From: Candidatus Woesearchaeota archaeon
GTDB lineage: Archaea > Nanobdellota > Nanobdellia > Woesearchaeales > GW2011-AR9
Direction of reading: 5' to 3'
NCBI GenBank assembly: GCA_018676855.1
Contig: JABHDY010000004.1
Span: 28,972 to 92,971, forward strand
Length of the DNA: 64,000 nt
The translations under genes and the position numbers were made by a program. The notes under the pieces are model-generated. The model had not been told where the DNA came from and did not search any database. It was given only the letters and a program-made list of their open reading frames with translations. Within the stretch, counting starts at the first letter, position 1. Each line of letters begins with the position of its first letter. Shown here piece by piece: positions 17,804 to 39,420 of the stretch.

Positions 17804-17843
17804 GAAAGAATTTAAACATAAACGTAATACTATACATAGAAAA

Positions 17844-18830
17844 ATGAGATTCGCTAGATATTTATTGAAAAGGATATTAGTTCTTACAACAATAATAATA
17901 CTTCTTTCAGTTAATTCATTGTCTGAATCTCCTCCCGTATTAACTCATTCAATGGTAGAATTTGGAGATTACAATCCTGAAACGGGAAAAGCTGGCGATT
18001 TTATATTTGATAATTCCATAGTGGATAAAGTTTTTGAAGAATTTGGTGAAGAAGCTTATGATGGATTTGGAGGAACAAAAACATTACCACATTATACATT
18101 CTTTTTGTCATTAGATGCAAGAATTTATGCGCCAACTGATGGTGAAGTGGTAATGCTTACATATCAAGAAGATTGGAACGATTATGAGATTCTTGTTGGT
18201 CCAACGTCATTAAGCGATTGGAAACTTAATTATGATCATATTAGAAATGTCCCTGGACACATTGTTGAAGGATACATGATTCAAGCAGGTGAGTATATCG
18301 GAACTCCGGGAGTTTGGTACATGGACGTAGGATTCATTGAACTTACAATAATGAAAGATCTCAATAATGGATTTAATGAAAATTATTGTCCATATGATTT
18401 TTTTACTCCTGAACTTAAAGTATCATTTTCCCAGGGTTTGAATAACTTAATGACAGATTGGGAATCTTATAATAATGATATGACTATTTACGATGAAGAA
18501 AGTTATGTGTCTCCAGGATGTTTTGAGAATACAGTTGAAGAAAAGATATTTTCCGGAGAAAGTGATGGTGCAGTAAATGATGGCGTTGAAGATACTGCAT
18601 TTGAGAGTATATATGGATGTTATGATAATGATTGTAAAATGCAAGAAATACGTGATAATTGGCCTCAACAATGTCCAATCGGACAAGTACAGATTAATAA
18701 TAATTGTATTGATACGGGATTAAGAGAAGACGATGTTGAAGGATTGTATGACGTTTTAGATGTTTGGAATGATAACCAATTAAACTTATTACAGAAAATG
18801 TCTATGGTTGCATTTATTTTAAAAGATTAA
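17844..18830 (+). CDS. Secreted protein carrying the conserved C-terminal helical motif shared with the giant surface proteins.
   Basis: The signal peptide starts at ATG 17844 (MRFARYLLKRILVLTTIIILLSVNSLSES). The track ORF starts at 17736 and would overlap the upstream gene. The C-terminus reads ...GLYDVLDVWNDNQLNLLQKMSMVAFILKD. Confidence 0.6.
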   Translation: MRFARYLLKRILVLTTIIILLSVNSLSESPPVLTHSMVEFGDYNPETGKAGDFIFDNSIVDKVFEEFGEEAYDGFGGTKTLPHYTFFLSLDARIYAPTDGEVVMLTYQEDWNDYEILVGPTSLSDWKLNYDHIRNVPGHIVEGYMIQAGEYIGTPGVWYMDVGFIELTIMKDLNNGFNENYCPYDFFTPELKVSFSQGLNNLMTDWESYNNDMTIYDEESYVSPGCFENTVEEKIFSGESDGAVNDGVEDTAFESIYGCYDNDCKMQEIRDNWPQQCPIGQVQINNNCIDTGLREDDVEGLYDVLDVWNDNQLNLLQKMSMVAFILKD

Positions 18831-21820
18831 ACAGAATGTTGCGTACCACCAAGTTCAGTGTACGCTTGTTCAATTTCTTTATCGTTCCATGTTGTTTGAT
18901 CATGTAATACTTTTTGTATACCTTCATCAGAAACGCCCATTGCTCTTTCTTTAGATATCCATTCTTTCAGTTCATCAAAGTTTGACGCACCACCACGAGA
19001 TTTGAGGAAGTGGATAACAATAAATATAATAATTACCAAGATAATGAATGCGCCGCCACCAATAATGTAATATTTGTAATCGTCCCAAATTTTTACTGTT
19101 GAAACTGGTTCCTGAACTGAAGGTTGTGTAGGTTGCACGTACGGTGGTTGCATCTGTTGCGATATTGAAGCTGGTGCTGGACCAGGAACAACCGTTTGTG
19201 AACATGATTTTGAAAGTGTTGGTTTTAACGATGTTACGCCACAACTATGTTCATCAACACACGTTCTTTGCTGTTGACCTGCACCACATGTTGACCATGC
19301 TGAACATACCCATGATTGTGTACATGCTTCACATGAACGATTTTCTATACGTTGTGTTCTTCTTCCTCTTGAATCTGTACATGTACGTACTTGTTCCAAT
19401 GATGCGTCACAATATTCCCATGTTGAACAAGCCCAACTAGAACTACGTCGAGTACTTCCGCCAGTACTTGGACTTCCACTATCTCCAGCTTCTTGTATTA
19501 CAGTTGGATCAACAGGAGGAACGCATACATTTTCTGTACATACCTCACCTTCAAGAGTACAATCAGTATCTGCTTCACACTCTTCAGGTATTTTACACAA
19601 GTTAACTACACATTCTTCTTCTGGAATTACACACTCAGCATTTGTTGAACATAAAACGTCTTCAGTACACACACTTGGTTCACCGGTACATGTCCAACCA
19701 GTTTCAAGTGTACATGTTGCTGAACAACCATCATCAGCATCTTCATTACCATCATCGCACGCTTCGCCAGTTTCTTCAACATCATTTCCGCATACTGCTT
19801 CACTTCCTGGATCAATTGATGCAATGCATGCACCATCAGAACAACCATTTTCACATAACACAGGATCTTCTAAGTAAGGACCAGTACATATTTGTAACGC
19901 AGAATCTAAATAACATGTATCTTCTGTACATGGAGATTTACATATTTCATCTACACAGACATTATTTGTATCTTCACAAGGAACTTCATCTGAACATGAT
20001 TCAGGAACAAAACAAGCAACTGCACAATCTGAATCGTCACAGTCAACGTTTCCATCACCATCATCATCTAATTCGTCATCGCAGACAGTTTCAGTTACAG
20101 GAGCAACTGAACAAATACCTGCACCATGACACGTTTCACCATCTGCACAATCTTGAGGAGTTGCTAAATATTCGTTCGTACATGCCCTTGACGCAGACGC
20201 ACCATAACATATATTTTCTTCACATGAGACTCTACATTTACCTGCAACACACGTATCTTCACCACAATCATCATCTGATGTACATTCTGTTTCTTGGAAA
20301 CAAGCAACAGCGTCAGAACAATCACTATCATCACAATCAGTAGTACCATCAAGATCATTATCAGTTTCATCATCACAGACAGATTCAAACTGAGAACATA
20401 TTCCTGCACCGTGACATGTTTCACCATCTGCACAATTTTCAGGAGCTGATAAATAATCGCCTGAACAAACGCTTGACGCCGATTCACTATAACATGCATT
20501 TGCTACGCATGGAGTAAGGCATGTTCCTAAACAAACATCTCCTGCAAGACATTCATCGTTTGATGTACATTCTGTTTCTTCGTAACAAGCTGCATCGCCA
20601 GTACAATCAGTATCTAAACAATCAATATTTCCATCATTATCATTATCAGTTTCATCGTTACATATTTCTGGTGATGGTGGAACAAGACTTTCAACACAAA
20701 ATGAATATGTTGCACAATCACTATCATCACAGTCTACCAAATCGTCATTATCATTATCTTGACCATCTTCACAATGTTCAATATTTGTAAGTCTTCGTTC
20801 TAATAATTCTACATTGCCCAAACTTCCTTCAATTTCGTCAATAAGATTTTTGTAGTCCTCTTCAGATAATTGTAATAGGTTACATTCATTCGCAATTTCT
20901 TTAAATGAATCTGCTTCTTCTCGTAACACATTTAGAAGGAAATTCTTTAACAATGCAGTTTGTGACAGTAACGAATCAATATATTTCGAATCTCGTGGAT
21001 GAATTTCAAGCTGGAACAATTTATCTTTTGATAAATCATGTTCATCTTTCAGACTGTTTAATTTAGTTTGTAATTTATCTTGGTCACATTTGTCTTCATT
21101 TACACAAACATCATTAGTAAAACAGTCTGGGTCAGCACAGTCAATTAAACTATCATCATCATTATCAATTTCATTTGTACATGTTTTTTCAACATCACGC
21201 ACAATGACAAACGTATCGCCTACTGAACGTGCAAGGTCTCGCGGATTTTCTTCAAATGAAGTAATGTTAAATTCTGTTAGTGATAAGTTATACCAACCAG
21301 GACCCGCATTTTCAACGTTTAAATTTCCTATTTCAAACGTACCACTTTGAAGATTTTGATAATCAATAGTTGCATGTTCAAATTCAACAATAGTATTTTG
21401 ACATGAAACTGTTTTAAAATCGTCTGACCACTCAAGTGAACTTGTTACAGACTCATCACAAGTGTCAGAACCTAGACCTTCATGTTCCAATATAAACCGG
21501 ACAGCTGACGTTTCATCTCCAACAACAAGGTTGGCTTTAATTGGTATAGTAGCATCATCGCCCCTATACAAAACATTATCTTCCAAAAATAAACCTACCT
21601 TTGGAAGTGATAGTGGCGTAATTTCAGCAGGCTGAATTGCTTTTCCCACAAACGTATCTGTAAAGAACAAGAACATTGAAATTGCAATAAGTAACACTAC
21701 AGTAATGATAGCAATAATGTACGGTTTCCGTATCTCTCCCCGTTCTGCAAGTGGGTGAGGTTCCCAACTATGTGGAGGAAGTTTCTTGTACCGTTTCTTT
21801 ACCGTTTTTTGTTGTATCAT
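18827..21820 (-). CDS. Giant Cys/Asp-rich type I membrane surface protein, 997 aa. It has a cohesin-like N-domain, 3 tandem ~90-aa Cys-rich modules, a Myxococcus-type Cys repeat, TSP1-like repeats, a C-terminal TM helix and a cytoplasmic tail.
   Basis: The N-terminus has a basic stretch, a TM helix and the motif FFTDTFVGKAI. Repeated CDDETDNDxDGxxDCDDSDC...CADGETCHGAGICS modules are present. A Myxococcus-type repeat reads CGNDVEETGEACDDGNEDADDGCSATC. A TSR-like segment reads CSAWSTCGAGQQQRTC. The TM helix near the C-terminus reads YYIIGGGAFIILVIIIFIVIHF. Confidence 0.8.
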   Translation of the reverse strand: MIQQKTVKKRYKKLPPHSWEPHPLAERGEIRKPYIIAIITVVLLIAISMFLFFTDTFVGKAIQPAEITPLSLPKVGLFLEDNVLYRGDDATIPIKANLVVGDETSAVRFILEHEGLGSDTCDESVTSSLEWSDDFKTVSCQNTIVEFEHATIDYQNLQSGTFEIGNLNVENAGPGWYNLSLTEFNITSFEENPRDLARSVGDTFVIVRDVEKTCTNEIDNDDDSLIDCADPDCFTNDVCVNEDKCDQDKLQTKLNSLKDEHDLSKDKLFQLEIHPRDSKYIDSLLSQTALLKNFLLNVLREEADSFKEIANECNLLQLSEEDYKNLIDEIEGSLGNVELLERRLTNIEHCEDGQDNDNDDLVDCDDSDCATYSFCVESLVPPSPEICNDETDNDNDGNIDCLDTDCTGDAACYEETECTSNDECLAGDVCLGTCLTPCVANACYSESASSVCSGDYLSAPENCADGETCHGAGICSQFESVCDDETDNDLDGTTDCDDSDCSDAVACFQETECTSDDDCGEDTCVAGKCRVSCEENICYGASASRACTNEYLATPQDCADGETCHGAGICSVAPVTETVCDDELDDDGDGNVDCDDSDCAVACFVPESCSDEVPCEDTNNVCVDEICKSPCTEDTCYLDSALQICTGPYLEDPVLCENGCSDGACIASIDPGSEAVCGNDVEETGEACDDGNEDADDGCSATCTLETGWTCTGEPSVCTEDVLCSTNAECVIPEEECVVNLCKIPEECEADTDCTLEGEVCTENVCVPPVDPTVIQEAGDSGSPSTGGSTRRSSSWACSTWEYCDASLEQVRTCTDSRGRRTQRIENRSCEACTQSWVCSAWSTCGAGQQQRTCVDEHSCGVTSLKPTLSKSCSQTVVPGPAPASISQQMQPPYVQPTQPSVQEPVSTVKIWDDYKYYIIGGGAFIILVIIIFIVIHFLKSRGGASNFDELKEWISKERAMGVSDEGIQKVLHDQTTWNDKEIEQAYTELGGTQHSV
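19840..20660 (-). repeat. Three tandem ~270-nt intragenic repeats encoding the Cys-rich CxDExDNDxDG...CADGETCHGAGICS module.
   Basis: The protein-level repeats ...CNDETDNDNDGNIDCLDTDC..., ...CDDETDNDLDGTTDCDDSDC... and ...CDDELDDDGDGNVDCDDSDC... are each followed by a near-identical CADGETCHGAGICS. Nucleotide similarity between copies is visible. Confidence 0.6.
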
Positions 21821-24393
21821 TGTTCTTGAGTTTGAGCATATTCTGAAAGATAATATGCAATCTTAGTTAATTTAATAATCATTGAATCGTCTGATTTAAG
21901 TGTTGTATACACATTTTCAAGGAATTGTTTCTGATCTGAATCTTCTACTATAAGGACTGTAAGAGTTTCTGTTCCAAGTTCAATATCTTGTAATGCCACC
22001 ATTGGCGATTCTGAACATGAAGAATAATCCGTTATGGTTGGCCAACCATCAGGACATGATTGAATTGTATCGAAAAAGTTTCCACTTCCCATATTTTCTG
22101 AAGACCCTGGTGGAAATGTTGCACTAGGAGGGCAGGAAACGTCATCATTTGTATTGTCACAAAAAGTATTCCCATCAAATGAGTTGCCTGTTGTTCGTTC
22201 AAGTTTTACACCAAACATGTTATTGATAAAATTATTTCCTTCCAATATATTGTCAATACTAATGTAATCTTCAGAACCAGGAGTACCCTCCGGCCTGTCC
22301 CATGAAATAAATGCACCGTTGATAAAACCACTGACTTTACAGTTCTTTACAGTAACTGAAGATGCAAGTTGTAAACTTATTCCAGTACCCCTTTCACCAG
22401 GACCAGTAATTGAATGGCCCTGACAATCAATGACGATATTGTCTGCATCCGGTTCAAAACATCTATTATTATCATCCAAGTCTGTAACATCCAAATCTTT
22501 TGTTACTTTGTATACTGTTCCTTCTTCCCATCCATTTCTAGGAGTACAACTATCAAGAAGAACAATTTCTGAAGATTCTAATACGAAAAATTCTTTAAGT
22601 TCAATTGAAAGTCCGTCAATCAAATCTTGTGTTCTTACACTATCTTGTAATCTTTTGTACATCCGTGCAAGAAGATAATTCTCACCTTTTTCATTATCTA
22701 TTTCAACAAAACGAGTGTATTCCCCATTAATAATTGTCCAACCATCTTCAATTTGGCAGATATCACTACATCCATCATTATTTTCAGTGTTACCATCATC
22801 ACACTGTTCTGTACCTTCACGGATACTATTCCCACATACAAATTCTTGACATGTACCTTCACGACAGCCTGACAACCCTTCACATATATTATCTGTTTTT
22901 TCAAGTTGTAACAAATCATTACATGAATATGTTACTTGTGCACTATTATCATCTGAACAATGGCTCGTTATAAAACCAGAATCAGACGTTCCATCAACAG
23001 TACGAGTATATCGTATTTGACCAGGCGTATCTGTCTCTTGACATATTGCTGGCATTTCACATTGTAAATCATATCCACAATAATATCCATCAGGACATTC
23101 AACACCGTTACATAAAGATTTCAGTTCACAACCATTTTCTATTGAATTGTCAGCATTTTCCCAACCAGTACGACACGAACAAAGGCCGTCAATTAATGTC
23201 ATATGATCACTACATGGAGTGTCGTCACACACATTTCCTTCACCATCATTATCACTATCTTCTTGAAGAATATTTTCCTGTTGAGGACAATTATCTTCTG
23301 AATCCTGAACTCCATCATTATCGCTATCAACGACACATCTTCCATTATCTATACACATTGTATCTGTAGGACATGATTCTAAATCTCCCCAGAATAGTTC
23401 GTCATCAAACGTTTTACACGTTTGAAATAATGTAATATCATCGCCTGAAACGCACCGTTTCTGAGCAAATTCTGTACACTCTTCTGTTCCGACAAATTGT
23501 GCAATGTTAAGACAAATAGCATTTTCTGTACAGTCATCATCGTTACAGTCTGTCCAACCGTCACCATCATTATCTTGGAGATCATTACATAGAATTTCAA
23601 TAACTTCTGGAACTTCTAAAGTGCACGTTGACGAACAACCATCACCATCAACTGTATTTCCATCATCACATTCTTCAAGAGCTTCTGTAACACCATTACT
23701 ACATAGTGCATCTGAAGGACCTTCTTCATCTGCAGCTGCCAAAACAGTAACAGTAGTTTCTATTGGTGAAACTAAACTTTGAGCAGAAGGATTGTTTAAA
23801 TCATACATAGTAAAGGAAGTAAACTCAAAATTTATAGGAACACTTTCGGTAGGTTCTTCATCAACCATTACAGTGATATATCCTAAATCCATTTTTCCTG
23901 AAATTGCATTTCCACAATCATTTGTTTCAGAACATAGGCCAGCAAACGTAACAGAGATAGTATCGTCAGTAGATTTAATATAATTAACAATAGTAAGATC
24001 GATACCCTCCCTTTCATAAAAGAAATTATCATGAACAGGTTCAATAATTCTAGAATAGTCAACTTTTGTTGAATCATAATCGTGTTTTAACGCAAACTGA
24101 AAAGCAACAGATTTTTTTCCTACTGGTAAAGAAACTTGAATAGGAATAGTATATTCTGTCACGCCAGGTTCAACTTCTATCGTACCGCCTAAAACTGCAG
24201 CTTTTCCAACACCAACTTCGGTAGTGAACTCGATAGCTTTTCCAACAAACGTGTCTGTGAAGAATAATAATCCCGCTAAACCTAGAAGTAAAACAACTGT
24301 AATAGCTGCTATGATTAAAGGTTTTTTATTTTTACCAGTACTTTGAGATACTGTTTTTGGGGTTCCCCGTGACACGTTCTGTTTTATTTTCAT
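21817..24393 (-). CDS. Giant secreted Cys-rich surface protein, 858 aa. It has a cohesin-like N-domain, Myxococcus-type Cys repeats, TSP type-3-like Ca-binding repeats, a parallel beta-helix and the conserved C-terminal helical motif.
   Basis: The N-terminal motif reads KKPLIIAAITVVLLLGLAGLLFFTDTFVGKAI. Myxococcus-type repeats include CDDGNTVDGDGCSSTC and CDDGNTENNDGCSDIC. The TSP3-like repeat reads DSDNDGVQDSEDNCPQ...DSDNDGEGNVCDD. The beta-helix repeats include NCKVSGFINGAFIS...GNNFINNMFGVKL...GNSFDGNTFCDN. The C-terminal motif reads ...FLENVYTTLKSDDSMIIKLTKIAYYLSEYAQ. It overlaps the downstream gene by 4 nt. Confidence 0.8.
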   Translation of the reverse strand: MKIKQNVSRGTPKTVSQSTGKNKKPLIIAAITVVLLLGLAGLLFFTDTFVGKAIEFTTEVGVGKAAVLGGTIEVEPGVTEYTIPIQVSLPVGKKSVAFQFALKHDYDSTKVDYSRIIEPVHDNFFYEREGIDLTIVNYIKSTDDTISVTFAGLCSETNDCGNAISGKMDLGYITVMVDEEPTESVPINFEFTSFTMYDLNNPSAQSLVSPIETTVTVLAAADEEGPSDALCSNGVTEALEECDDGNTVDGDGCSSTCTLEVPEVIEILCNDLQDNDGDGWTDCNDDDCTENAICLNIAQFVGTEECTEFAQKRCVSGDDITLFQTCKTFDDELFWGDLESCPTDTMCIDNGRCVVDSDNDGVQDSEDNCPQQENILQEDSDNDGEGNVCDDTPCSDHMTLIDGLCSCRTGWENADNSIENGCELKSLCNGVECPDGYYCGYDLQCEMPAICQETDTPGQIRYTRTVDGTSDSGFITSHCSDDNSAQVTYSCNDLLQLEKTDNICEGLSGCREGTCQEFVCGNSIREGTEQCDDGNTENNDGCSDICQIEDGWTIINGEYTRFVEIDNEKGENYLLARMYKRLQDSVRTQDLIDGLSIELKEFFVLESSEIVLLDSCTPRNGWEEGTVYKVTKDLDVTDLDDNNRCFEPDADNIVIDCQGHSITGPGERGTGISLQLASSVTVKNCKVSGFINGAFISWDRPEGTPGSEDYISIDNILEGNNFINNMFGVKLERTTGNSFDGNTFCDNTNDDVSCPPSATFPPGSSENMGSGNFFDTIQSCPDGWPTITDYSSCSESPMVALQDIELGTETLTVLIVEDSDQKQFLENVYTTLKSDDSMIIKLTKIAYYLSEYAQTQEQ

Positions 24394-24408
24394 TTCAAAT
24401 TATTATAA

Positions 24409-25311
24409 TTATGACCAAGTATGCTCACGCAATATTTGTGCAATTGCAGATATTTTTTGAAGGACATTATTTTCTTCCTCTTTTAAAACAGAATAAATTC
24501 TATTTAATAAATCCTGTTCGGCCACATCACCATCTTCAAATACCATTCCTAGTTTGCATACACCATCAACATTTACTTCTTTTGTTCCGCATTCAGTAGA
24601 TGTAGGTTGAGGTTCGCCTGCAGGAGGAACAACTTCTATATCTACACATTCTCCGCCAACTGCATTACATTCTTGATCAGAAGGACAACCAGTAGGAGCT
24701 ATACGTTCATTTCCTGGACACCTATTACCAGCAGTACATTCAGAAGCATCAAATGCATTACAAACAGGAGCAACTTCTATATCTACACACTGACCAACAC
24801 TACATTCTTGACCAGAAGGACAACCAGTAGCAGGAATAACAACATTATCTGGACATAGCCAGCCATCTGTACATTCAGTTACAGGTAATGCGGTACATGT
24901 TGGAGTTACAGACTCAACTTGAACCACAGGGAAAGAAGCTTCCTCTTGACCTGCTGCAGTATTAGCTTGAATTCCAGTAATTGCTAATGTAAAAGATGCA
25001 GAAGCGTCAAAGTTTAATGTTCCTGTAAATGTATCTGGAGACAAAGCAAATACTCCAATTGCAGGAGGGGACTGAGTTAAGTCACTAATATCAATAAATG
25101 GACTAAAACTTACTGAACTTAATGTTGCAGAACCAGAACTTACTGTTGCACTAAAACCTGAAATAGATGTCGTTCCAGAACTTATTTCACAAGCAACCGG
25201 ACCCCCACCATCTGGAACAGTTCCACAATTTACTGTGAAGTCGACAGCAAACGCAGAACTAACTAAAAGTAATGCAACCAACAAATAAATTTTATATCTT
25301 TTTATCATCAT
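24409..25311 (-). CDS. Secreted Cys-rich protein, 300 aa, with two tandem Cys modules and the conserved C-terminal helical motif.
   Basis: It has a classical signal peptide (MMIKRYKIYLLVALLLVSSAFA). Two ~45-aa repeats read TxCxxxxxxECTxGxxCPxN...GCPSxQEC...CVDIEV. The C-terminus reads DLLNRIYSVLKEEENNVLQKISAIAQILREHTWS. Confidence 0.7.
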   Translation of the reverse strand: MMIKRYKIYLLVALLLVSSAFAVDFTVNCGTVPDGGGPVACEISSGTTSISGFSATVSSGSATLSSVSFSPFIDISDLTQSPPAIGVFALSPDTFTGTLNFDASASFTLAITGIQANTAAGQEEASFPVVQVESVTPTCTALPVTECTDGWLCPDNVVIPATGCPSGQECSVGQCVDIEVAPVCNAFDASECTAGNRCPGNERIAPTGCPSDQECNAVGGECVDIEVVPPAGEPQPTSTECGTKEVNVDGVCKLGMVFEDGDVAEQDLLNRIYSVLKEEENNVLQKISAIAQILREHTWS

Positions 25312-25323
25312 TTTTCACCTCTA

Positions 25324-26409
25324 TTAAGAGCAACTATTTATTGTAAATCCAGGCACACCAAATGAAACACGAGCAATTAAAATAGCATCATCTAATGAAA
25401 CGGTCCCTGAACAATCAGCGTCCGAATTTGCTGAATCTTGTAGTGAATATCCAGGCACGCCAAATGAAACACGGGCAACTAAGATCGCATCAGCAAGATT
25501 TAGAGTTCCATCACCATCTGCATCACCTAATACAATATTGGATGGTGCAACATTACCACTCCAACTTGTCTGACTTCGTGCAACATCACACATTTTAAGT
25601 GGATCTTGTGGATATACATCTTGATCAGTATAACAAACACCGCCAATTAAACAAGTATTTGCATTAAGTGGATACGTACACGTTTCATCAGTACAAACAT
25701 CAGTTGTACATGACAATCCATCATTACAATCAGTATCTGCTCTACATTCTACACCAGGTTCAGGAACGTCAGGTTCAGGAACAGCAACACTTTCAACAAT
25801 AATTGTTGGACTAACAATACCCGTATCGAGAATCATATCAATAGGAGGTTGTGCAACATTATAAACATCAAATTTTGTAAATGTTAAATCATACTCACCC
25901 GTTACACTTTCCTGAAAAGTAATAGTAGCGATAGTAAATAAACCAGTTTTTTCATTTAGAGGATCAAATGTTGCTGAATCAAAACTAATTATACCATCAG
26001 CGCATGAAATATCTAATAAGTCTGTCCAACCTAAATCAGAAACTACTGAACTACTACACTCGGTTGACAAATCTAAACCATTAAGGTGAAGATCAAAAGA
26101 TACTGCAACAGTTTCAACATCAACGGGCAATTTAGCTTGTACTATAAGATCAAACTCATCATCAACAGTAACAGTATTATCTACCAAAAATATTCCTGCT
26201 GTATTATCAGTAATAGTACCTTCCAATTGAAAACTGATAGCCTTTCCTACAAACGTATCTGAGAAAAATAGTAATGAACCCAGTGCAACAAGTGCTACGA
26301 TAGTAATAATGCCAATAAGTAACGGTTTATTAACCTCTTTTTTATTTGAAACCTGATTTTGAGTTCTTTTTGAAACGTTTTTCTTCACCATTTTTATCCT
26401 CCCTCTCAA
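25324..26409 (-). CDS. Membrane-anchored surface protein, 361 aa, with a cohesin-like N-domain and a C-terminal two-repeat dockerin domain.
   Basis: The N-terminal motif reads NKPLLIGIITIVALVALGSLLFFSDTFVGKAI. The cohesin-like segment reads FLVDNTVTVDDEFDLIVQAKLPVDVETVAVSFDLHLNGLDLS. The C-terminus reads GDADGDGTLNLADAILVARVSFGVPG ... NSDADCSGTVSLDDAILIARVSFGVPG. These are two EF-hand-like DxDxDGxxNxxD loops, each followed by a helix, which is the canonical dockerin repeat architecture. Confidence 0.75.
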   Translation of the reverse strand: MRGRIKMVKKNVSKRTQNQVSNKKEVNKPLLIGIITIVALVALGSLLFFSDTFVGKAISFQLEGTITDNTAGIFLVDNTVTVDDEFDLIVQAKLPVDVETVAVSFDLHLNGLDLSTECSSSVVSDLGWTDLLDISCADGIISFDSATFDPLNEKTGLFTIATITFQESVTGEYDLTFTKFDVYNVAQPPIDMILDTGIVSPTIIVESVAVPEPDVPEPGVECRADTDCNDGLSCTTDVCTDETCTYPLNANTCLIGGVCYTDQDVYPQDPLKMCDVARSQTSWSGNVAPSNIVLGDADGDGTLNLADAILVARVSFGVPGYSLQDSANSDADCSGTVSLDDAILIARVSFGVPGFTINSCS

Positions 26410-28703
26410 TTACGTAGCACGTACGCTATCTCTGACATTTTCTGTAATAAATTATTATCATTATTCCATATAGTTACTATTTCATTTAATAAATTGGTAT
26501 TATCTTCTGATGCCCCCGTATCTACACAAACACCATTAACATATAATTCTCCAGTTACACATTCTTCAGGCCACTCTACTGTAGCTTCAGGAATAGGAGC
26601 AGGTTCTGGTTCGACAATACAAGACGTATCAGCAACACAATCACTATCAGCACAATCAACTAAACTATCACCATCATTGTCAATACTATCTGTACAAATT
26701 TCAATTGGAGACGTACCAACACAAACTCCGGCAGAACAATGATCACCAGTTGTACTTGGATCATTATCTGAACAATACAAAGCATCATTATTAGTCCATG
26801 CAGCAGTATCAGATTCAGGGTTACATTGTTGACATTGGTTAGCTGGATTAAGATTATTTCTTATCTGACAAACGCCATCTATCAAACATCGGTTTGCACT
26901 AATTGGATATGTACATGTTCCCTCTACACAAACATTATCTGTACAGGAGATACTATCATCACAATCTGTATTTGTTGTACATTCAGGAATATCTTCAGCA
27001 GGAGCAGGTTCTTCGGTTAAACATAAAGATGAACAACCGTCATTATCAATAAGATTACCATCGTCACATTCTTCATTACCATTAATAAGAGAATCACCAC
27101 AAGATTCTGCAAGTAAACAATCTCCATATCCTAAACATTCATTTCCACAGTTTTGTATACCATTATAACCATTAACTTCACAGTTTATACTACCATCATC
27201 ACAAAATTCACCTTCTTCAATTATTGAATTACCACAAACTGCAGTTGGTTCTGGTTCTGGAGGCGCAGGCTCCGGTTCTTCCTCAGGTTCAGCAGGAGGA
27301 ACTGGTTCAGGCTCCTCTTCAGGTTGAGGAGCAGAAAATAAAGGTGTACCGAACGCTAACAATTTACCTTCGTCACCGCCTGCAACATATAAAATATCAT
27401 CGTTTGCTAAAAGTGATGGTGATGTACTTGGATTATGATTAATTGTACTTGGAACACTCCAAAGAGTATTTTTCCATGGCGTACCTGGATATGTAGGCGG
27501 TCCACCTTTAAGAGCAACAACTTTATCCGTACGAGAAATGTAAATTGTACCATCTAATGCAACTAATGGAGCTGCGTAAATTGGTGTGCTAGAAGAATAA
27601 TGATAATCACTATCTGTAGGAGTAAATATTATCTGACTATGTTTTCCAGGAAGAAATGCAATAGTTCCAAAATATAATTTTTTATCAGTACCAGCAGAAG
27701 CAAGGTACAGTTTCGCAGATGTCGTAGTGGTATCAACAACAACAGCTTCAGATATAAACGATGCGCCAGGTACCATTACAGGTCCAACATTTTGGTTAGT
27801 CGGTCTTGAAATGAATAACATACCACCAGAACGTGCTTGTTCAAAAAAGTATATTTGTTCATTAACAGTTCCAATAATAACTAAATTGTAATCATTCACT
27901 CCAGCTACTGTAGAAGAATAAACTGTTATAGGTGCCACTACATTTGAATCGAGAGAGATTATATGATGAATTCCTTGAGTTCCCGCTGTAACCAAAGTCA
28001 TGTCATCTATGTTAATAGAATATAATTCTCTACTATTTGGCATTTGTACTACAAAAATGAGATAATCGCCATTACTTGAAGGAGATATTGCAGGCGTAGA
28101 AGATACAAAACCGCTCGTACCATACGCCACATCTGTATATGTAACAGGATATCCAGGAACTGGATACACATTAATTTTATGGACGCCCCTTGTTGATCCA
28201 ACAATAAATGTATCACCATACATAACAATAGATGTCGTAGGATTAATTGCCCCATGACTTAACGCTATATCAAGCGCGTCACAATTTCCTACTGCTGAAC
28301 GATCAGATAATCCAACAATCCTAACAATTCCATTTTCTAAAGGTACAAACAAATTATCTTCCTCTGCATGATGTGCAGGACTACCAATAACTTTGTCAGC
28401 ACGAATAAAACAACTGTTTATACTATCACCCGTGCTTGGGTTTATAGTATGAAGGTATGAACCCGTTTCATCATTTGTTATAAGATATGTAGCATCGCCA
28501 ACAACGAACGGTGCAATGTCTGCAGATCCAGAAGAATAAGTTTGTTCCCAAAGAAGAGTTGTATCTCCAGCGATAGGACCAACATCAATAGCCTTTCCAA
28601 AAACGCCTTCTTTAATTGATGGAAATAATACAAATAATGCAACTAACAAAACAACTGCTACTACCCCTAATATCACTACAATTTTACGACTATTAGCATT
28701 CAT
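26406..28703 (-). CDS. Giant surface protein, 765 aa. It has an N-terminal TM anchor, a beta-propeller-like repeat region, a PEPEP linker, Cys-rich Myxococcus-type and CxDxxDNDGD modules, and the conserved C-terminal helical motif.
   Basis: The anchor reads MNANSRKIVVILGVVAVVLLVALFVLFPSIKEGVFGKAI. The linker reads PEEEPEPVPPAEPEEEPEPAPPEPEP. Cys modules include CGDSLINGNEECDDGNLIDNDGCSSLC and CTDSIDNDGDSLVDCADSDC. The C-terminus reads NLLNEIVTIWNNDNNLLQKMSEIAYVLRN. Confidence 0.8.
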   Translation of the reverse strand: MNANSRKIVVILGVVAVVLLVALFVLFPSIKEGVFGKAIDVGPIAGDTTLLWEQTYSSGSADIAPFVVGDATYLITNDETGSYLHTINPSTGDSINSCFIRADKVIGSPAHHAEEDNLFVPLENGIVRIVGLSDRSAVGNCDALDIALSHGAINPTTSIVMYGDTFIVGSTRGVHKINVYPVPGYPVTYTDVAYGTSGFVSSTPAISPSSNGDYLIFVVQMPNSRELYSINIDDMTLVTAGTQGIHHIISLDSNVVAPITVYSSTVAGVNDYNLVIIGTVNEQIYFFEQARSGGMLFISRPTNQNVGPVMVPGASFISEAVVVDTTTTSAKLYLASAGTDKKLYFGTIAFLPGKHSQIIFTPTDSDYHYSSSTPIYAAPLVALDGTIYISRTDKVVALKGGPPTYPGTPWKNTLWSVPSTINHNPSTSPSLLANDDILYVAGGDEGKLLAFGTPLFSAPQPEEEPEPVPPAEPEEEPEPAPPEPEPTAVCGNSIIEEGEFCDDGSINCEVNGYNGIQNCGNECLGYGDCLLAESCGDSLINGNEECDDGNLIDNDGCSSLCLTEEPAPAEDIPECTTNTDCDDSISCTDNVCVEGTCTYPISANRCLIDGVCQIRNNLNPANQCQQCNPESDTAAWTNNDALYCSDNDPSTTGDHCSAGVCVGTSPIEICTDSIDNDGDSLVDCADSDCVADTSCIVEPEPAPIPEATVEWPEECVTGELYVNGVCVDTGASEDNTNLLNEIVTIWNNDNNLLQKMSEIAYVLRN

Positions 28704-29727: not shown

Positions 29728-31052
29728 TATGCTTTACCTGGTTCTAACATAGTTATACCAGATTCTTTAACATCATTATCTTTAATAACATACATTTCGG
29801 TAATTTCTAATTCTTCACCGACGTTCAAATCTTCAATTGACATTCGTTCAAATCCCGGAATGCCGATAAGGTTCCAACCCTCTTGTACAGATACAAGTTC
29901 GTTAAACGGATTATGTGAAGCAGTAAAATAGTCGTTACATTCTTCAGTAAAAGAAAATGTATCTACACCGTCTTTTAACCTAATGTAATATCCTTTATCT
30001 TGTTTCAAGTTAGTAATCTCTGACGTACCACTCCATAAGTCAGGAATTGTACGTGCTAAAACCTGTTCAGTTTCATCCCATGAATATATTCCCTTAACTT
30101 TATCTTCAAAGTCGGTACTTCCTATCACACTTCTTCCAACATCGCAGGAAGGTGAAAATGCTTGCATGCGTAAACCGCCAGTAAAGTTAAATGTTATTTC
30201 GTACTGATCGTACGTTGCCTGTTCAACTTTTGTTAATGTCATAAGTGGAAAATTGTCTTCTTGTAACGTTGCAACGATTGATCCAACAGAAAAGAGAAAG
30301 TCACGTTCCGTTTCTTCACCATTAACATCGGCAATAACTGTTATTCGATACACGCCAACATCGTCAGGTGTAAATGTAAGGCCTTTTAATACATGGGCAG
30401 TAGAGGGTTCGTCTTCAGTGATATCATAAAATTCTGAATCAGAAAGTTGTGTACCGTCATTCTTATACGCAGTTACAGTTGCAAGTGGAGTACTTTCAAC
30501 TTTTACGTACCGTTCAATAACGTCATCAGGGGAAACAGCTGACAGTTCAGATTCAACAGGTGTGCCATCAATGTCTAACAATGAAATTATTGCTGCGGAA
30601 GGTTCATCATATACAATGTTTCGTACAGTTAATTCGCTCCCGTCGTACGACAGTTCAATGTCAGGAACATTATCAAAATCTAAATAGATGTTTCCTGAAG
30701 TACGTAGGCCATTACCAAGAAGACCTTCAAACAATCTTGTTCCGCTTAAACTGACACTATAATTGATCATACTATAATCGGTATCTTCAAACGGAAATAC
30801 CTCAATATGATATTCACGTTGAACTCCCTGTGAAGGAACTAAAGAAATGTCCCATGAAGTAACGAACTGGACAGAAATTGATGCTGATTCTGTCACGTTA
30901 AGATCTATCGGACCAATAGGTGGCGTTGTATATGCTTGACCTGTCGGCCGTAAGAATACTGCTAGTAATACGACAACAACAAGTAATGCTGCACCAATAA
31001 GTACTTTAGGTACAATGTTTTTCATTTTGCTGTTTGATTTTTTTGTTGTCAT
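29709..31052 (-). CDS. Secreted or membrane-anchored protein, 447 aa, function unknown.
   Basis: The N-terminus has a basic stretch, the TM helix VLIGAALLVVVVLLAVFL and a possible cleavage site TGQA|Y. The body is beta-rich. It overlaps the flanking genes by 19 nt and 4 nt. Confidence 0.7.
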   Translation of the reverse strand: MTTKKSNSKMKNIVPKVLIGAALLVVVVLLAVFLRPTGQAYTTPPIGPIDLNVTESASISVQFVTSWDISLVPSQGVQREYHIEVFPFEDTDYSMINYSVSLSGTRLFEGLLGNGLRTSGNIYLDFDNVPDIELSYDGSELTVRNIVYDEPSAAIISLLDIDGTPVESELSAVSPDDVIERYVKVESTPLATVTAYKNDGTQLSDSEFYDITEDEPSTAHVLKGLTFTPDDVGVYRITVIADVNGEETERDFLFSVGSIVATLQEDNFPLMTLTKVEQATYDQYEITFNFTGGLRMQAFSPSCDVGRSVIGSTDFEDKVKGIYSWDETEQVLARTIPDLWSGTSEITNLKQDKGYYIRLKDGVDTFSFTEECNDYFTASHNPFNELVSVQEGWNLIGIPGFERMSIEDLNVGEELEITEMYVIKDNDVKESGITMLEPGKAYWVFVE

Positions 31053-34000: not shown

Positions 34001-34681
34001 TTCATAAATACCAAAAAAGTTAGAATCACAAACATGCCATTGATTTTCTGAACATAAAAATTTGTTACCTACATCCGATGGAAGATTTTGATAGATTCCC
34101 GGAATTTGTGTGTCGTCACATTCAACAGTAATTGTTGCATGTACATCTGGATCAATGTTATTAGAGACACAAAGTTCTTTTTTAGTAGATACATACTTAG
34201 AAAACAAAGAGCCAACACTATAACAGTATGTTCCAGAAGTTAAAGAAGAAGCTTGATATTCTTCAAATGTCATCTGTGGCTTTGGACCAATGCAAAAATC
34301 GCCTCGTTGTGGACAACAATATCCAGGCGCAGTTCCCCCAGATGCTAAATTAACTCCATCACCATCAATGGCATTTTGAAGAGTATATTTATGTGTTTTT
34401 TCAATACCTCTTTGAGAACAAGAATCTTCACCAAAAACAGCTTCAACAACAGCCAATGGTTCATTAGTACTTCCCCAATAATCCCCTACTGGTGCAGGTT
34501 GTCCCGCTTGCCATATAGCCTGACCAACAACCCCATCTTTAACAAATGGATACAGAACAGCAACTGCAACTACTAAAACAATTAAACCAACCCATAATGC
34601 AGTAAGTTTCTTTTTATGTTCAGAATGATGCTCACTAGGAGAAGAACGTTTCAGTTTAGCACTATCTTTTTTAACCATCAA
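31049..34681 (-). CDS. Giant secreted or membrane-anchored protein, 1210 aa, function unknown.
   Basis: The N-terminal TM helix reads LTALWVGLIVLVVAVAVLYPFVKDGVVGQAI, sharing the G-x-A-[IV] junction. An N-terminal Cys-rich segment reads CxxNxxHVCD.. repeated. The rest is a long beta-rich body with no recognised motif. Confidence 0.8.
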   Translation of the reverse strand: MMVKKDSAKLKRSSPSEHHSEHKKKLTALWVGLIVLVVAVAVLYPFVKDGVVGQAIWQAGQPAPVGDYWGSTNEPLAVVEAVFGEDSCSQRGIEKTHKYTLQNAIDGDGVNLASGGTAPGYCCPQRGDFCIGPKPQMTFEEYQASSLTSGTYCYSVGSLFSKYVSTKKELCVSNNIDPDVHATITVECDDTQIPGIYQNLPSDVGNKFLCSENQWHVCDSNFFGIYEDDNSYFCDATQWHVCDDSVSSMFCKNNKWLFDVPKEEFENPQGIFNGFVLEGIGVLPNGGSTAADPVDIIEKQGYFGFLSITTQKSFFRYGDTIFQIKMANPTEAGAVTLSVSSAGPAFDITLTVDPEDKYAFSQEQFPLDLDGDTITDAYLSVLLASPYLDKSILFSVTTVIDFDQTNMAWTGVLLSDNSQTFVSNGVEHTMGVFGDESDVIFTIDGRSFGGSTATTDVTPNPIVGNFFGGNFFIDEQETEEIFFVARPIVVGDGGVIFRLTKTQEEIRIGTTVGEDQVDLAQTYEESFSKDIILDVATNNLGFVSVCSNDPPVLSALTVCDRESQILNIQNKKASTLENVLFWYEQPAPDQTKEGSVLYRRDVTDIQNEFATIFATNMVAGKRMALSYEGHDYVIRMNSLSNYLDLTTLKLRDITEPGFPEYVAEGDQSEVVFNLPLGKQINIKLDLEPELNYDFSAKTTTTKQVDLENEFETYISTYSQVDILNFRDSEAYRKIKIDPSDINILKDIMQINYNGVLVELNFSDAKPNFEHNGKVLFYYSDFTNGGISGALNTFNKYAHVFFYSNLRNGPYTHEFTDTNFILPLVKGKRLAFGLDDQYYLLTYADPWTGTEAEGFELSKMRITNVDGSNPIAPTMSGLDLVFDLGERRIEAKVQTGDVREITFTGISLSDVTSELELAAISTGTFSPRENFSATLLAGVNGQRNNIQIGSNTYEICDSAAAATLVDFVGLCSSNEIDLTLDRDVLYSSYISGVLVQYHGKNTEGQKVVTFKHTMNLTDDHTETFDWLAITDNLQNNRNPAIFWEDTWFELEGSQTLDTFQLVELPRASSFSTIQMNTTTSEAEGREAGTIVFDNGVLAFQKKFVGESEDFRIDLDIEPLQRSLLTLIGFNVTEEQQPTSFMTNIDGHVYSLSVDESPSISDFVKVTITEEGKLIYVSNLPVDEERHVLLSNGNVVKIHVLDADIPTIHIQK

Positions 34682-34758: not shown

Positions 34759-35883
34759 CTATCGTGACCGAGAAGGAGATGCAGATTCTTTCTTAAGGTA
34801 CGCAACTATAGACATTTTTTCTAACAAACTTTGTGAACTTTTTTTCCACATAGAATTTATTGAAGTGAGAAGTGTATCGTCGGTAACACGGACATCAATA
34901 CAACGCGTATTTTCTTTAATGGGTAATTTTCCAACGTCACAATTTTCAAACTTACACATTGGATCTCGTAAACATGCAACATCATCACAGTCAACTTTAC
35001 CATTACCATCATTATCTATTCTATCACCACATTTTTCAAAAACTAAACATTCAGAAGATCCCGTTACTGCCCAACAGATAGAATTTCTCACTATCTTCCG
35101 CGCATCAGTATTATACAATTCCCATTTATAATCGTCCATAAAGAATCCAAGATGAACAAACTTGCCAGGATTTCTACCAAAATCTGTAACGCCACTCTCT
35201 AACGCAAAACCTGAAATTGAGGAAGGTAATGCCCTTGACTCTGCAGTCGAACCAGAATGTGAATTTCCAGGACCAAACAACGCAACATATTCGGTTTCAT
35301 AAATGTTATTCGTATTAATGTACCCAACATAAAGAGGTTTACGAGTTGCTTGTAATCTCACTTCGTCGCTAAATTCTTTCATGATATCGTGCGTAGTATC
35401 AACTGAACCGATAGACGTTTTAAAATTGTCATCAGCGCCCACACCGTTCGTTATTTCTAAAGAACTAGAAGTATATGCACGATGCGCAACACTAATTATA
35501 GGTACACCATTATTCCTGTACGCTTCTTTAAGTATATTATCTCTTACTTTAAGTACATTTGAACATGCCAGATAATGACCAGCACAAACAACAGCACTAT
35601 ACCCATTAAATGAAGTAACTTTTCCACCACCTAATGCATACAATTCGCCGCCAACGAGGTACATACGGGTAACATCAAACCCTTCATCAACCAAATATTC
35701 TCGTATATAATCTGTATATGTACATCCCTGATTATAACAAATAAAAGCAAGATTGATTTGTCCTCCCCGTGAAACGGCCATACCAGTGACATTATTAGAA
35801 AAAGAAAAAAAGATGAAAGAGAAAGCAATAACTGTGATTGCTATACCTACAACTAACCAAATGCGGTTTCTATCAACACTCAT
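34759..35883 (-). CDS. Membrane-anchored surface protein, 374 aa, with a CxDxxDNDGxGxxDC module and the conserved C-terminal helical motif; the first gene of the cluster.
   Basis: The N-terminal TM helix reads RIWLVVGIAITVIAFSFIFFSF. The Cys module reads CGDRIDNDGNGKVDCDDVAC. The C-terminus reads TLLTSINSMWKKSSQSLLEKMSIVAYLKKE followed by an 8-aa tail. Confidence 0.7.
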   Translation of the reverse strand: MSVDRNRIWLVVGIAITVIAFSFIFFSFSNNVTGMAVSRGGQINLAFICYNQGCTYTDYIREYLVDEGFDVTRMYLVGGELYALGGGKVTSFNGYSAVVCAGHYLACSNVLKVRDNILKEAYRNNGVPIISVAHRAYTSSSLEITNGVGADDNFKTSIGSVDTTHDIMKEFSDEVRLQATRKPLYVGYINTNNIYETEYVALFGPGNSHSGSTAESRALPSSISGFALESGVTDFGRNPGKFVHLGFFMDDYKWELYNTDARKIVRNSICWAVTGSSECLVFEKCGDRIDNDGNGKVDCDDVACLRDPMCKFENCDVGKLPIKENTRCIDVRVTDDTLLTSINSMWKKSSQSLLEKMSIVAYLKKESASPSRSR

Positions 35884-38794: not shown

Positions 38795-38816
38795 GTAATA
38801 TATTGTTTCAAATGAG

Positions 38817-39407: not shown

Positions 39408-39420
39408 GTTTTGATACACA

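What the first reader, a model, noticed from the sequence alone, without database searches (positions are those of the whole stretch)
21632..26270. Conserved N-terminal signal-anchor motif FF[TS]DTFVGKAI, also conserved at the nucleotide level.
Three giant proteins begin with a basic stretch, K/N-K-P-[LY]-[IL]-I, a ~20-aa hydrophobic helix, then an invariant FF(T/S)DTFVGKAI. The coding DNA is nearly identical (ACAGATACGTTTGTGGGAAAAGC, ACAGACACGTTTGTTGGAAAAGC, TCAGATACGTTTGTAGGAAAGGC). Other operon members share the G-[KQ]-A-[IVY] junction (VFGKAID, VVGQAIW, TGQAYT). This fits a Sec signal peptide with an unusually conserved c-region and cleavage site (small residues at -3 and -1). Alternatively it is a specific sorting or recognition signal for a dedicated processing enzyme.
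Basis: seen in the sequence. Interest (0 to 1): 0.65.

Follow-up and report, generated by a model that had tools for sequence, protein, structure and literature searches.

The report
Conserved leader on Woesearchaeota surface proteins
The motif is the outer end of a roughly 60-residue, previously undescribed N-terminal export/anchor leader carried by about 140 clusters of surface proteins in Woesearchaeota (tiny DPANN archaea); it ends in an invariant G-x-A site that looks like a processing site, but cleavage has not been shown.

Summary
FF[TS]DTFVGKAI occurs three times, only at the N-termini of three minus-strand paralogues (997, 858 and 355 aa). The DNA similarity is what amino-acid identity plus codon bias would give: about 60% nt identity over 37 codons, and synonymous sites vary freely in relatives.

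It is not a recent local duplication. A 40-column profile finds 138 protein clusters, always at the N-terminus, on varied passengers. The named sources are Candidatus Woesearchaeota MAGs.

The module has four parts:
- a basic tail, in about half of members carrying a fixed-spacing LPPHxxExHP…GExxK box that was not in the query;
- a 21-residue hydrophobic helix;
- [ST]-D-x-F-V-G-[KQ]-A;
- a conservation cliff after +1.

A looser Φ-G-x-A-Φ site follows long N-terminal helices in unrelated neighbouring proteins (13/52 against 0.6% expected). One orthologue has swapped leaders.

No Pfam or NCBIfam signal class matches, no peptidase is co-located, and no paper mentions the motif.

Best reading (about 0.5): a lineage-specific extended Sec leader cut at G-x-A↓Φ by a type I signal peptidase. 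Main rival (about 0.35): an uncleaved type II signal anchor. Cleavage is untested.

The parts
21638..21820 (-). Leader module of the 997-aa protein (residues 1-61). Basic tail with KRYKKLPPHSWEPHPLAERGEIRK box (about 21725-21793), hydrophobic helix P33-F53 (21662-21724), c-region TDTFVGKA (21638-21661). Proposed site between A61 (21638-21640) and I62 (21635-21637).
24235..24393 (-). Leader module of the 858-aa protein (residues 1-53). Basic tail without the LPPH box, helix P25-F45, TDTFVGKA, then I54.
26239..26391 (-). Leader module of the 355-aa protein (residues 1-51 from the ATG at 26391). Helix K22-T46 in the AlphaFold model. FVGKAISF... is a low-pLDDT linker before a cohesin-like beta-sandwich.
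18827..21820 (-). Gene A (997 aa): leader + cohesin-like domain + acidic double-disulfide repeats + CxxWxxC repeats + C-terminal TM + cytoplasmic tail. Identical to MBT4935259.1, hypothetical protein, Candidatus Woesearchaeota archaeon.
21817..24393 (-). Gene B (858 aa): leader + cohesin-like domain + Cys-rich repeats (TIGR02232, DUF4215) + parallel beta-helix + C-terminal helical motif.
25324..26391 (-). Gene D (355 aa): leader + cohesin-like domain + two dockerin-like repeats (sub-threshold Dockerin_1).
28590..28703 (-). Generic long leader of the 765-aa protein: 20-residue helix, PSIKEGVFGKA, then I.
30933..31052 (-). Generic long leader of the 447-aa protein: helix, RPTGQA, then Y.
34517..34681 (-). 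Generic long leader of the 1210-aa protein: helix, YPFVKDGVVGQA, then I.
35776..35883 (-). Generic long leader of the 374-aa protein: helix, SFSNNVTGMA, then V.
46322..46468 (+). Generic long leader of a protein with a PGF-pre-PGF-like domain: helix, TNVDTSIDLTGNA, then V.

Best explanation
FF[TS]DTFVGKAI is the exoplasmic end of a lineage-specific N-terminal leader (median 59 residues) on Woesearchaeota surface proteins.

The leader has three parts:
1. A basic cytoplasmic tail. In about half of members it carries a fixed-position [KR]xYKxLPPH[ST]xE[AP]HP...GE[VA][NS]K box.
2. A 21-residue hydrophobic helix with position-specific conservation.
3. An 8-residue exoplasmic segment, [ST]-D-x-F-V-G-[KQ]-A, followed by I/V/F/Y.

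Inferred mechanism:
- The leader inserts N-in through the Sec translocon and exports Cys-rich, cohesin-like and beta-helix adhesin-type passengers.
- Φ-G-x-A↓Φ is then cut by a type I (Sec11-type) signal peptidase, possibly a specialised paralogue.
- The same site ends otherwise unrelated long leaders in the same genomes.
- The passenger stays on the cell through C-terminal elements: a TM plus tail, a helical motif, or dockerin-like repeats.

Shown: the module, its breadth, peptide-level selection, the shared G-x-A site, leader swapping between orthologues, and the unstructured linker.

Inferred: Sec dependence, N-in topology, cleavage, and the identity of the enzyme.
For: - Breadth: a profile of the 40-residue leader finds 139 clusters at E<=1e-3 among 1.84 billion representatives, 138 of them real. 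The match always lies at residues ~20-70, in proteins of 64-1436 aa.
- Conservation, anchored on the G-x-[AG] pattern (so -3 and -1 are partly fixed by construction, though every one of the 138 has the pattern): K-30 89%, I-26 85%, L-12 83%, V-4 87%, G-3 100%, A-1 99%. Information falls below 1 bit from +2.
- The LPPH box lay outside the query profile, yet it is present in 70/138 members, and in 60 of those at one fixed spacing.
- The orthologue in a Woesearchaeota MAG is 43-51% identical overall, but nearly identical over the first ~60 leader residues (about 54 of 62 by my count from the printed alignment).
- Synonymous sites vary freely, so selection acts on the peptide.
- The module sits on unrelated passengers such as DUF4215 repeats and cohesin-like domains.
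- Φ-G-x-A-Φ lies within 20 residues of the N-terminal helix in 13/52 non-family ORFs, against 0.6% expected (P~1e-17; about 7-9 independent groups after collapsing orthologues).
- Gene B's orthologue carries a different leader of this type...PLFKGPVAGQA-TF.
- Canonical signals in the same loci end A-x-A followed by V/T/E, so A at -1 and a beta-branched +1 fit the local peptidase preference.
- The AlphaFold model has helix 22-46, pLDDT<50 over residues 45-59 (which include FVGKAI), then a folded domain.
- Proteins with the same C-terminal TM plus tail as gene A use a canonical cleavable signal when encoded separately.
- Signal peptidases are reported as widespread in DPANN MAGs (PMC10936187).
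Against: - No cleavage data exist.
- The hydrophobic helix is 21 residues, and helix plus c-region spans 24-31 residues, against 15-21 for canonical signals in these loci. By established knowledge of type I signal peptidases, this places the site unusually far from the membrane and is typical of signal anchors.
- G at -3 shows no exception, whereas signal peptidase I normally tolerates A/V/S/T there. This hints at a structural turn or a different enzyme.
- 97/109 members of at least 250 aa have no second hydrophobic segment.
- Strong conservation of the cytoplasmic box and of the helix is unusual for a disposable signal.
- No signal peptidase gene lies in the window or in any related locus.
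- SignalP and DeepTMHMM could not be run.
Confidence: 0.5

Rival explanations
1. The leader is an uncleaved type II signal anchor. The N-terminal helix stays in the membrane as the sole anchor of most family members. The cytoplasmic LPPH box binds a cytoplasmic partner, for example the tail of the neighbouring or fused type I membrane protein. F-S-D-x-F-V-G-K-A is a conserved juxtamembrane stalk or turn.
For: - The helix is 21 residues, and helix plus c-region spans 24-31 residues, against 15-21 in canonical signals of the same loci.
- 97/109 longer members have no other hydrophobic segment.
- The cytoplasmic box and the helix are more conserved than the passenger.
- In every related locus of at least 4 kb, a leader gene lies within a few kb of, usually beside, a gene for a type I membrane protein with a conserved cytoplasmic tail. 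The two are fused in gene A.
- G at -3 shows no exception, which fits a backbone turn.
- The same ambiguity between a TM helix and a signal peptide is noted for surface proteins of a cultivated DPANN archaeon (bioRxiv 10.1101/2023.10.27.564410).
Against: - The abrupt loss of conservation exactly after the residue following a small-x-small pair is what a cleavage site predicts.
- The same short site ends otherwise unrelated leaders at variable distance (3-13 residues) from the helix.
- Gene A would have to be a hairpin with both ends inside the cell.
- Conservation along the helix shows no significant helical periodicity, as a packing face would give (p=0.17).
Confidence: 0.35
2. The leader is a dedicated N-terminal sorting signal, read by machinery other than the general signal peptidase. 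Candidates are a specialised protease or transpeptidase, or the nearby FlaI/TadA-like ATPase with its polytopic membrane partner. This would be an N-terminal counterpart of sortase or archaeosortase systems.
For: - The conserved signal is tripartite: a cytoplasmic box, a helix, and an exoplasmic G-x-A with no exception seen at G. This is more specific than any general signal peptidase requires.
- The window holds a FlaI/TadA-family ATPase (41501-43795) and a 738-aa membrane protein (43855-46071).
- A 60%-identical homologue of that membrane protein lies directly downstream of the surface-protein cluster in locus L006.
- The window also holds an S16 Lon-like membrane protease (780-2735) and an M50 peptidase (47370-47996).
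Against: - No candidate enzyme is consistently adjacent in the related loci.
- The ATPase itself was found in none of the related loci.
- The leader fails the class III (pilin-type) pattern.
- Only a few kb around each related gene could be examined, so phylogenetic co-occurrence could not be tested.
Confidence: 0.1
3. The three copies result from recent local duplication or gene conversion, and the motif has no function of its own.
For: The three genes are tandem paralogues that share a following domain.
Against: - Leader DNA is only about 60% identical, with many synonymous differences.
- The passenger is 32-37% identical while the motif is invariant.
- 138 clusters from many environments carry the module.
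Confidence: 0.02
4. The leader is a SipW-cognate (TasA/camelysin-type) signal peptide, because FF[ST]DT resembles the [AY]-F-[ST]-D-T-E motif of that class. That resemblance comes from my own recollection.
For: Only the local resemblance of F-[ST]-D-T.
Against: - There is no NCBIfam hit to TIGR04088 even at E<=10, on full proteins or on isolated leaders.
- In the family consensus the segment is F-S-D-Q-F, and the invariant part is V-G-K-A, which the SipW class lacks.
- The passengers are not TasA-like.
Confidence: 0.03

Closest known systems
Specialised extended signal peptides: YSIRK-G/S (Gram-positive surface proteins), ESPR (autotransporter/TPS extended signal peptide region) and KxYKxGKxW (accessory Sec substrates)
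   Same: All are long leaders with a conserved sequence motif layered on the n-h-c plan. They are attached to large surface adhesins with varied passengers and are restricted to a lineage.
   Different: These are bacterial families, and none is matched by HMM. Here the conserved elements are a cytoplasmic LPPHxxExHP box and an exoplasmic F-V-G-K-A. The hydrophobic helix is of TM length, and cleavage is unproven.
Ordinary archaeal Sec signal peptide cut by Sec11-type signal peptidase I
   Same: It has a basic n-region, a hydrophobic core and small residues at -3/-1. The +1 residue resembles that of the canonical signals in the same loci.
   Different: The leader's median length is 59 residues and its hydrophobic stretch is 21 residues. 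G at -3 shows no exception, and sequence is conserved throughout the leader. Canonical signals (A-x-A, 15-21 residues after the last charge) coexist in the same gene clusters.
Type II signal anchor (uncleaved N-terminal TM helix)
   Same: It has a TM-length helix after a basic tail, and this is the only hydrophobic segment in about 89% of members.
   Different: It ends in a sharply bounded small-x-small motif that is shared with unrelated leaders.
SipW-cognate signal peptide (TIGR04088; TasA/TapA type)
   Same: Both have an F-[ST]-D-T-like tripeptide just after the hydrophobic core.
   Different: There is no HMM match, the invariant core is different (V-G-K-A), and the passengers are different.
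Class III (type IV pilin-like) signal peptide
   Same: Both have a conserved N-terminal hydrophobic helix, and a FlaI/TadA-like ATPase lies in the window.
   Different: There is no [KR]-[GA] cleavage motif at the cytoplasmic edge: K-[PT] precedes the helix. The tail is long and conserved, and the conserved site lies on the far side of the helix.

Membership tests
Sec-type signal peptide cleaved by type I signal peptidase | Positively charged n-region | tested here: met
   Median net charge is +6 in 138 leaders; all three window proteins have K/R-rich tails.
Sec-type signal peptide cleaved by type I signal peptidase | Hydrophobic h-region of signal-peptide length (typically ~7-15 residues; longer in some Gram-positives) | tested here: inconclusive
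   The hydrophobic stretch is 21 residues (-29 to -9). Helix plus c-region is 24-31 residues, against 15-21 in canonical signals of the same loci.
Sec-type signal peptide cleaved by type I signal peptidase | Small uncharged residues at -3 and -1, no Pro at +1 | tested here: met
   G at -3 (100%), A at -1 (99%, otherwise G), +1 is I/F/V/Y. The alignment was anchored on G-x-[AG], but all 138 sequences contain it.
Sec-type signal peptide cleaved by type I signal peptidase | Leader actually removed from the mature protein | not testable with these tools
   This needs N-terminal proteomics or expression experiments. SignalP and DeepTMHMM were not available.
Sec-type signal peptide cleaved by type I signal peptidase | Sec11-type peptidase encoded in the genome | not tested
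   None lies in the 64-kb window. The literature reports signal peptidases as widespread in DPANN (PMC10936187).
SipW-cognate signal peptide (TIGR04088) | Match to the family HMM | tested here: not met
   No hit at E<=1 on full proteins or at E<=10 on isolated leaders.
YSIRK / KxYKxGKxW / ESPR extended signals | Match to the Pfam or NCBIfam motif models | tested here: not met
   No N-terminal family hit in Pfam or NCBIfam.
Tat signal peptide | Twin-arginine consensus [ST]-R-R-x-F-L-K just before a weakly hydrophobic h-region | tested here: not met
   The consensus before the helix is G-E-[VA]-[NS]-K-[PT], with no RR motif at that position. No Tat-signal model appeared among the NCBIfam hits.
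Class III (type IV pilin/archaellin) signal peptide | [KR]-[GA] cleavage site immediately before the hydrophobic helix; short leader | tested here: not met
   K(-30, 89%) followed by P/T precedes the helix. The conserved G(-34) is not consistently preceded by K/R (-35: A19/K15/Q12/S10%). The tail is ~30 residues and conserved.
Lipoprotein signal (lipobox) | Cys at +1 after [LVI]-[ASTVI]-[GAS] | tested here: not met
   There is no Cys in or next to the motif.
Cohesin module (the domain following the leader) | Nine-stranded jelly-roll beta-sandwich resembling solved cohesins; Pfam Cohesin match | tested here: inconclusive
   In the AF2 model (mean pLDDT 62; domain 70-84), cohesins dominate the top Foldseek PDB hits, but only at E~1e-3 to 1e-2 and TM 0.45-0.55. 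There is no Pfam hit.

The most novel reading that the evidence does not exclude
Woesearchaeota have a second, dedicated route for placing surface proteins. In this reading a tripartite N-terminal sorting signal (a cytoplasmic LPPHxxExHP box, a conserved TM helix, and an exoplasmic Φ-G-x-A↓Φ site) is read by specific machinery: a specialised peptidase or transpeptidase, and/or the FlaI-like ATPase with its polytopic membrane partner. The cytoplasmic box would engage the conserved tail of the adjacent or fused type I membrane protein. This would be an N-terminal counterpart of sortase or archaeosortase sorting in organisms that depend on their surface to attach to hosts.
Probability: 0.15. Interest if true: 0.8.

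Novelty: new variant of a known kind. Interest (0 to 1): 0.55.

Why it matters
DPANN archaea are thought to live attached to hosts, and their large surface proteins are the presumed contact machinery. How these proteins are exported and held on the cell is unknown. Standard predictors leave 'TM helix or signal peptide?' open, and the same doubt is raised for the cultivated DPANN archaeon Nanobdella.

This work gives three practical things:
- a recognisable leader about 60 residues long, which marks a surface-protein repertoire in Woesearchaeota that is currently annotated only as 'hypothetical protein';
- an HMM-able signature for mining adhesins from metagenomes;
- a concrete, testable processing site (G-x-A↓Φ), together with a cytoplasmic box that suggests regulated or specialised targeting.

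If the leader is simply a long signal peptide or an anchor, the gain is better annotation. If it is read by dedicated machinery, it would be a new archaeal sorting system.

Tried and rejected
1. Word-indexed homologue search with the 40-residue leader alignment: 5 candidates, none significant. With the 183-aa alignment it gave only 6 short fragments. The exhaustive profile search and the DNA-pattern scans were needed instead.
2. The SipW/TasA-type signal idea, from the F-[ST]-D-T resemblance: no TIGR04088 hit even at E<=10.
3. Class III pilin-type signal, Tat signal and lipobox: all rejected on sequence.
4. Nucleotide-level constraint or gene conversion: rejected.
5. A conserved helical face in the TM helix: the periodicity of the information content is not significant (permutation p=0.17). 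The result is also biased by how the hits were found.
6. A co-located signal peptidase or sortase-like enzyme: none in the window or in nine related loci.
7. Genome-collection scan for F[TS]DTFVGKA: 5 hits. Three were chance matches outside ORFs (a Phycisphaeraceae MAG, a Thermoplasmata MAG and an Acutalibacteraceae MAG), close to my rough estimate of about 4 chance matches for this pattern. Two were real.
8. Literature: no paper in the library contains the motif strings, and none on Woesearchaeota or DPANN describes such a leader.
9. The distribution of C-terminal anchoring elements between canonical-signal and long-leader proteins does not separate cleaved from uncleaved, because both classes carry them.

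Full report
**Source and setting.** The window is archaeal, with about 35% G+C. It encodes ribosomal protein S6e, SepF, FtsZ, an archaeal-type ProRS and IleRS. The 997-aa protein of the finding is identical to MBT4935259.1, 'hypothetical protein, Candidatus Woesearchaeota archaeon', seen on a contig of 929,840 bp. The finding lies in a minus-strand run of nine surface-protein genes (18.8-35.9 kb), with a tenth, related gene on the plus strand at 17.7-18.8 kb. These genes are rich in acidic double-disulfide and Cys-rich repeats, DUF4215 and a parallel beta-helix.

**Checking the observation.** A six-frame scan finds F-[FL]-[TS]-D-T-F-V-G-K-A three times only, at 21638-21667, 24235-24264 and 26239-26268 on the minus strand. 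Each sits about 50-60 residues into a protein of 997, 858 or 355 aa, after [RKN]-K-P-[LY]-[IL]-I and a hydrophobic stretch. I found two more: TGMAV in gene 34759-35883 and TGNAV in gene 46322-47014. 'Giant' does not fit the third protein.

**The DNA claim does not hold.** The three leaders are 58-63% identical in DNA over 37 codons. Of their 20-23 identical residues, 9-13 use different codons. Inside the 8-codon core, 5 of 8 codons match per pair, against about 0.47 expected from this genome's codon usage. In 14 related leaders the Thr, Val, Gly and Ala codons all vary. The constraint is therefore on the peptide. This also argues against recent gene conversion.

**Breadth.**
- A scan of one genome per species for the back-translated F[TS]DTFVGKA pattern gave five hits. 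Three were chance matches outside ORFs. Two were real: a syntenic Woesearchaeota MAG, and a MAG labelled Methanosarcinales.
- A metagenome scan gave 13 loci with variants such as FFSDAFVGKAI, LFSKQFVGKAL, FFSDTFVGQAT and IFGPNFVGKAI.
- An exhaustive profile search with the 40-residue leader found 139 clusters at E<=1e-3 among 1.84 billion representatives, 20 of them at E<=1e-10. One was a false positive. The match is always near residues 20-70, in proteins of 64-1436 aa.
- All sources that give a name call these proteins hypothetical.

**Anatomy of the module.** I aligned the leaders on the G-x-A pattern. That anchoring fixes -3 and -1 by construction, although all 138 sequences contain the pattern. 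The profile is:

K(-30, 89%)-[PT]-[LF]-[IV]-I(-26, 85%)-[AG]-I-I-[TA]-I-V-A-x-x-[AG]-L(-15, 79%)-[SA]-L-L(-12, 83%)-L-F-F(-9, 78%)-S-D-Q-F(-5, 75%)-V(-4, 87%)-G(-3)-[K67/Q20/E9/R4]-A(-1)-[I55/F14/V9/Y9]

After +1, information drops below 1 bit. The hydrophobic stretch is 21 residues and the exoplasmic segment 8. The median leader is 59 residues and the tail's median net charge is +6.

Upstream lies a box that was not part of the query: [KR]-x-Y-K-x-L-P-P-H-[ST]-x-E-[AP]-H-P...G-E-[VA]-[NS]-K. It occurs in 70 of 138 members, and in 60 of those at one fixed spacing. Gene A has it; genes B and D do not.

Gene A's orthologue in the related MAG is 43-51% identical overall. Over the first ~60 leader residues it is nearly identical, about 54 of 62 by my count from the printed alignment, and this includes the cytoplasmic box. 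The whole leader, not only the c-region, is therefore under stronger constraint than the passenger.

**A wider class of leader.** In the window and related loci, N-terminal signals fall into two kinds.
- Canonical signals: a short tail, then 15-21 residues from the last charge to A-x-A.
- Long leaders: a helix of about 19-22 residues, a 3-13-residue linker that often starts with Pro, then Φ-G-[KQERMN]-A-Φ.

Excluding the family itself, 13 of 52 ORFs with an N-terminal helix have this site within 20 residues of the helix, against 0.6% expected from the rest of the proteins (P~1e-17). After collapsing orthologues, about 7-9 independent groups remain. Gene B's orthologue in the related MAG keeps its C-terminal ~580 residues but carries a different long leader...PLFKGPVAGQA-TF. 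The two leader types therefore appear to be interchangeable.

**Structure and passengers.** I ran AlphaFold on gene D's first 208 residues with a 9-sequence alignment (mean pLDDT 62, so this is a modest model). It gives a helix at 22-46, pLDDT<50 over 45-59 (which includes FVGKAI), and a beta-sandwich at 66-178 with pLDDT 70-84. Cohesins dominate its top PDB matches, but only weakly (E~1e-3, TM about 0.5). Gene D ends in two dockerin-like repeats, which match Dockerin_1 only below threshold (E 0.049). The motif therefore lies in a flexible linker, not in the folded domain. In other members the leader joins directly to Cys-rich repeats.

**Gene neighbourhood.** In every related locus of at least 4 kb, a leader-bearing gene lies within a few kb of, usually beside, a gene for a protein with a canonical signal, CxxWxxC repeats, a C-terminal TM and a conserved cytoplasmic tail. 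In gene A and its orthologue these two are fused. A membrane-anchored OB-fold protein is also conserved nearby. No peptidase is conserved nearby. The window does hold an S16 Lon-like membrane protease, an M50 peptidase, and a FlaI/TadA-like ATPase with a 738-aa membrane partner. A homologue of that partner lies next to the surface-protein cluster in locus L006.

**Comparison with known classes.** No Pfam or NCBIfam model matches the leader, either on full proteins or on isolated leaders at E<=10. This rules out membership of the SipW-cognate, YSIRK, KxYKxGKxW, ESPR and Tat families as currently modelled. The class III pilin pattern and the lipobox fail on sequence. No paper in the library contains the motif strings. 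A review of archaeal surface biogenesis does not describe such a leader in the parts I read.

**Interpretation.** It is secure that this is a conserved, lineage-specific N-terminal export/anchor module under peptide-level selection, ending in a site shared with other leaders. Whether it is cut remains open.

For cleavage at G-x-A↓Φ:
- the small-x-small pair;
- the conservation cliff at +1;
- the unstructured context in the model;
- the same site at variable distance on unrelated leaders;
- a +1 residue like that of local canonical signals;
- the fact that proteins with gene A's C-terminal anchor otherwise use cleavable signals.

For an uncleaved anchor:
- a helix of TM length, which places the site 8-13 residues beyond the membrane;
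- G at -3 without exception;
- conservation of the cytoplasmic box and the helix;
- 97 of 109 longer members having no other hydrophobic segment.

A periodicity test for a packing face in the helix was not significant (p=0.17). I put cleavage by a type I signal peptidase at about 0.5, an uncleaved anchor at about 0.35, and dedicated machinery at about 0.1.

**Verdict.** The motif is one end of a larger, undescribed leader module. I rate it a new variant of a known kind (specialised signal peptides or signal anchors) and of moderate interest.

Noticed in passing
window 17736-18830 (+), 21817-24393, 24409-25311, 26406-28703, 34759-35883 (-): the last ~35 residues of each: A shared C-terminal helical motif, approximately LLNEIxxIWxxxxNLLQKMSxIAyxL. 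It also ends canonical-signal proteins in loci L006, L008, L009, L011, L014, L016 and L018. No Pfam hit. It may be a docking or in-plane anchoring element.
   Followed up: partly
window 25324-26391 (-): The 355-aa protein looks like leader + cohesin-like beta-sandwich + two dockerin-like repeats (GDADGDGTLNLADAILVARVSFG, and a second copy). This hints at cohesin-dockerin-type assembly on a Woesearchaeota surface. Both matches are weak (Foldseek E~1e-3; Dockerin_1 E 0.049).
   Followed up: partly
window 18827-19500 (-) (C-terminal ~200 aa of gene A); L006:5139-6158, L008:3735-4742, L014:12421-13443, L016:15484-16497 and others: CxxWxxC repeats + TM + cytoplasmic tail (...EWISKERxxGxSDExIxxxL..TGWxxxEIExAFxEL) form a separate canonical-signal protein beside or within a few kb of a leader-bearing gene in every related locus of at least 4 kb. 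In the window and in L012 this protein is fused to the leader protein, which is a gene-fusion link between the two.
   Followed up: partly
window 17420-17803 (+): A 127-aa OB-fold protein (tRNA_anti-codon-type OB) with an N-terminal TM helix ending ...LFFYADEF. It is conserved next to the surface-protein cluster in L002, L008, L012 and L014-L016 (40-76% identity). Its function is unknown.
   Followed up: partly
window 41501-43795 (+) and 43855-46071 (+); L006:6383-7036: A FlaI/TadA-family ATPase and a 738-aa polytopic membrane protein with no family hit. A 60%-identical homologue of the membrane protein lies directly downstream of the surface-protein cluster in L006. Three paralogous small membrane proteins (38234-39987) lie upstream in the window.
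   Followed up: partly
L012:6204-9923 versus window 21817-24393: The orthologue of gene B is 1240 aa. It has a different long leader and extra N-terminal domains, showing leader and domain shuffling between close relatives.
   Followed up: yes
window 780-2735 (+) and 47370-47996 (-): A membrane protein with an S16 Lon-like protease domain but no ATPase-domain hit, and a small M50 (site-2 protease family) peptidase. These are the only peptidase candidates in the window. Neither is linked to the cluster in the related loci.
   Followed up: no
window 46322-47014 (+): A protein with a long leader ending LTGNA-V and a borderline PGF-pre-PGF domain match (27.4 bits against a cut-off of 28), next to the ATPase/membrane-protein pair.
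   Followed up: no
L005 (CAYJQD010000103.1): This contig, labelled 'uncultured Methanosarcinales archaeon', carries a typical Woesearchaeota-type leader protein and tail protein at 39% G+C. It is probably mis-binned or mislabelled.
   Followed up: no
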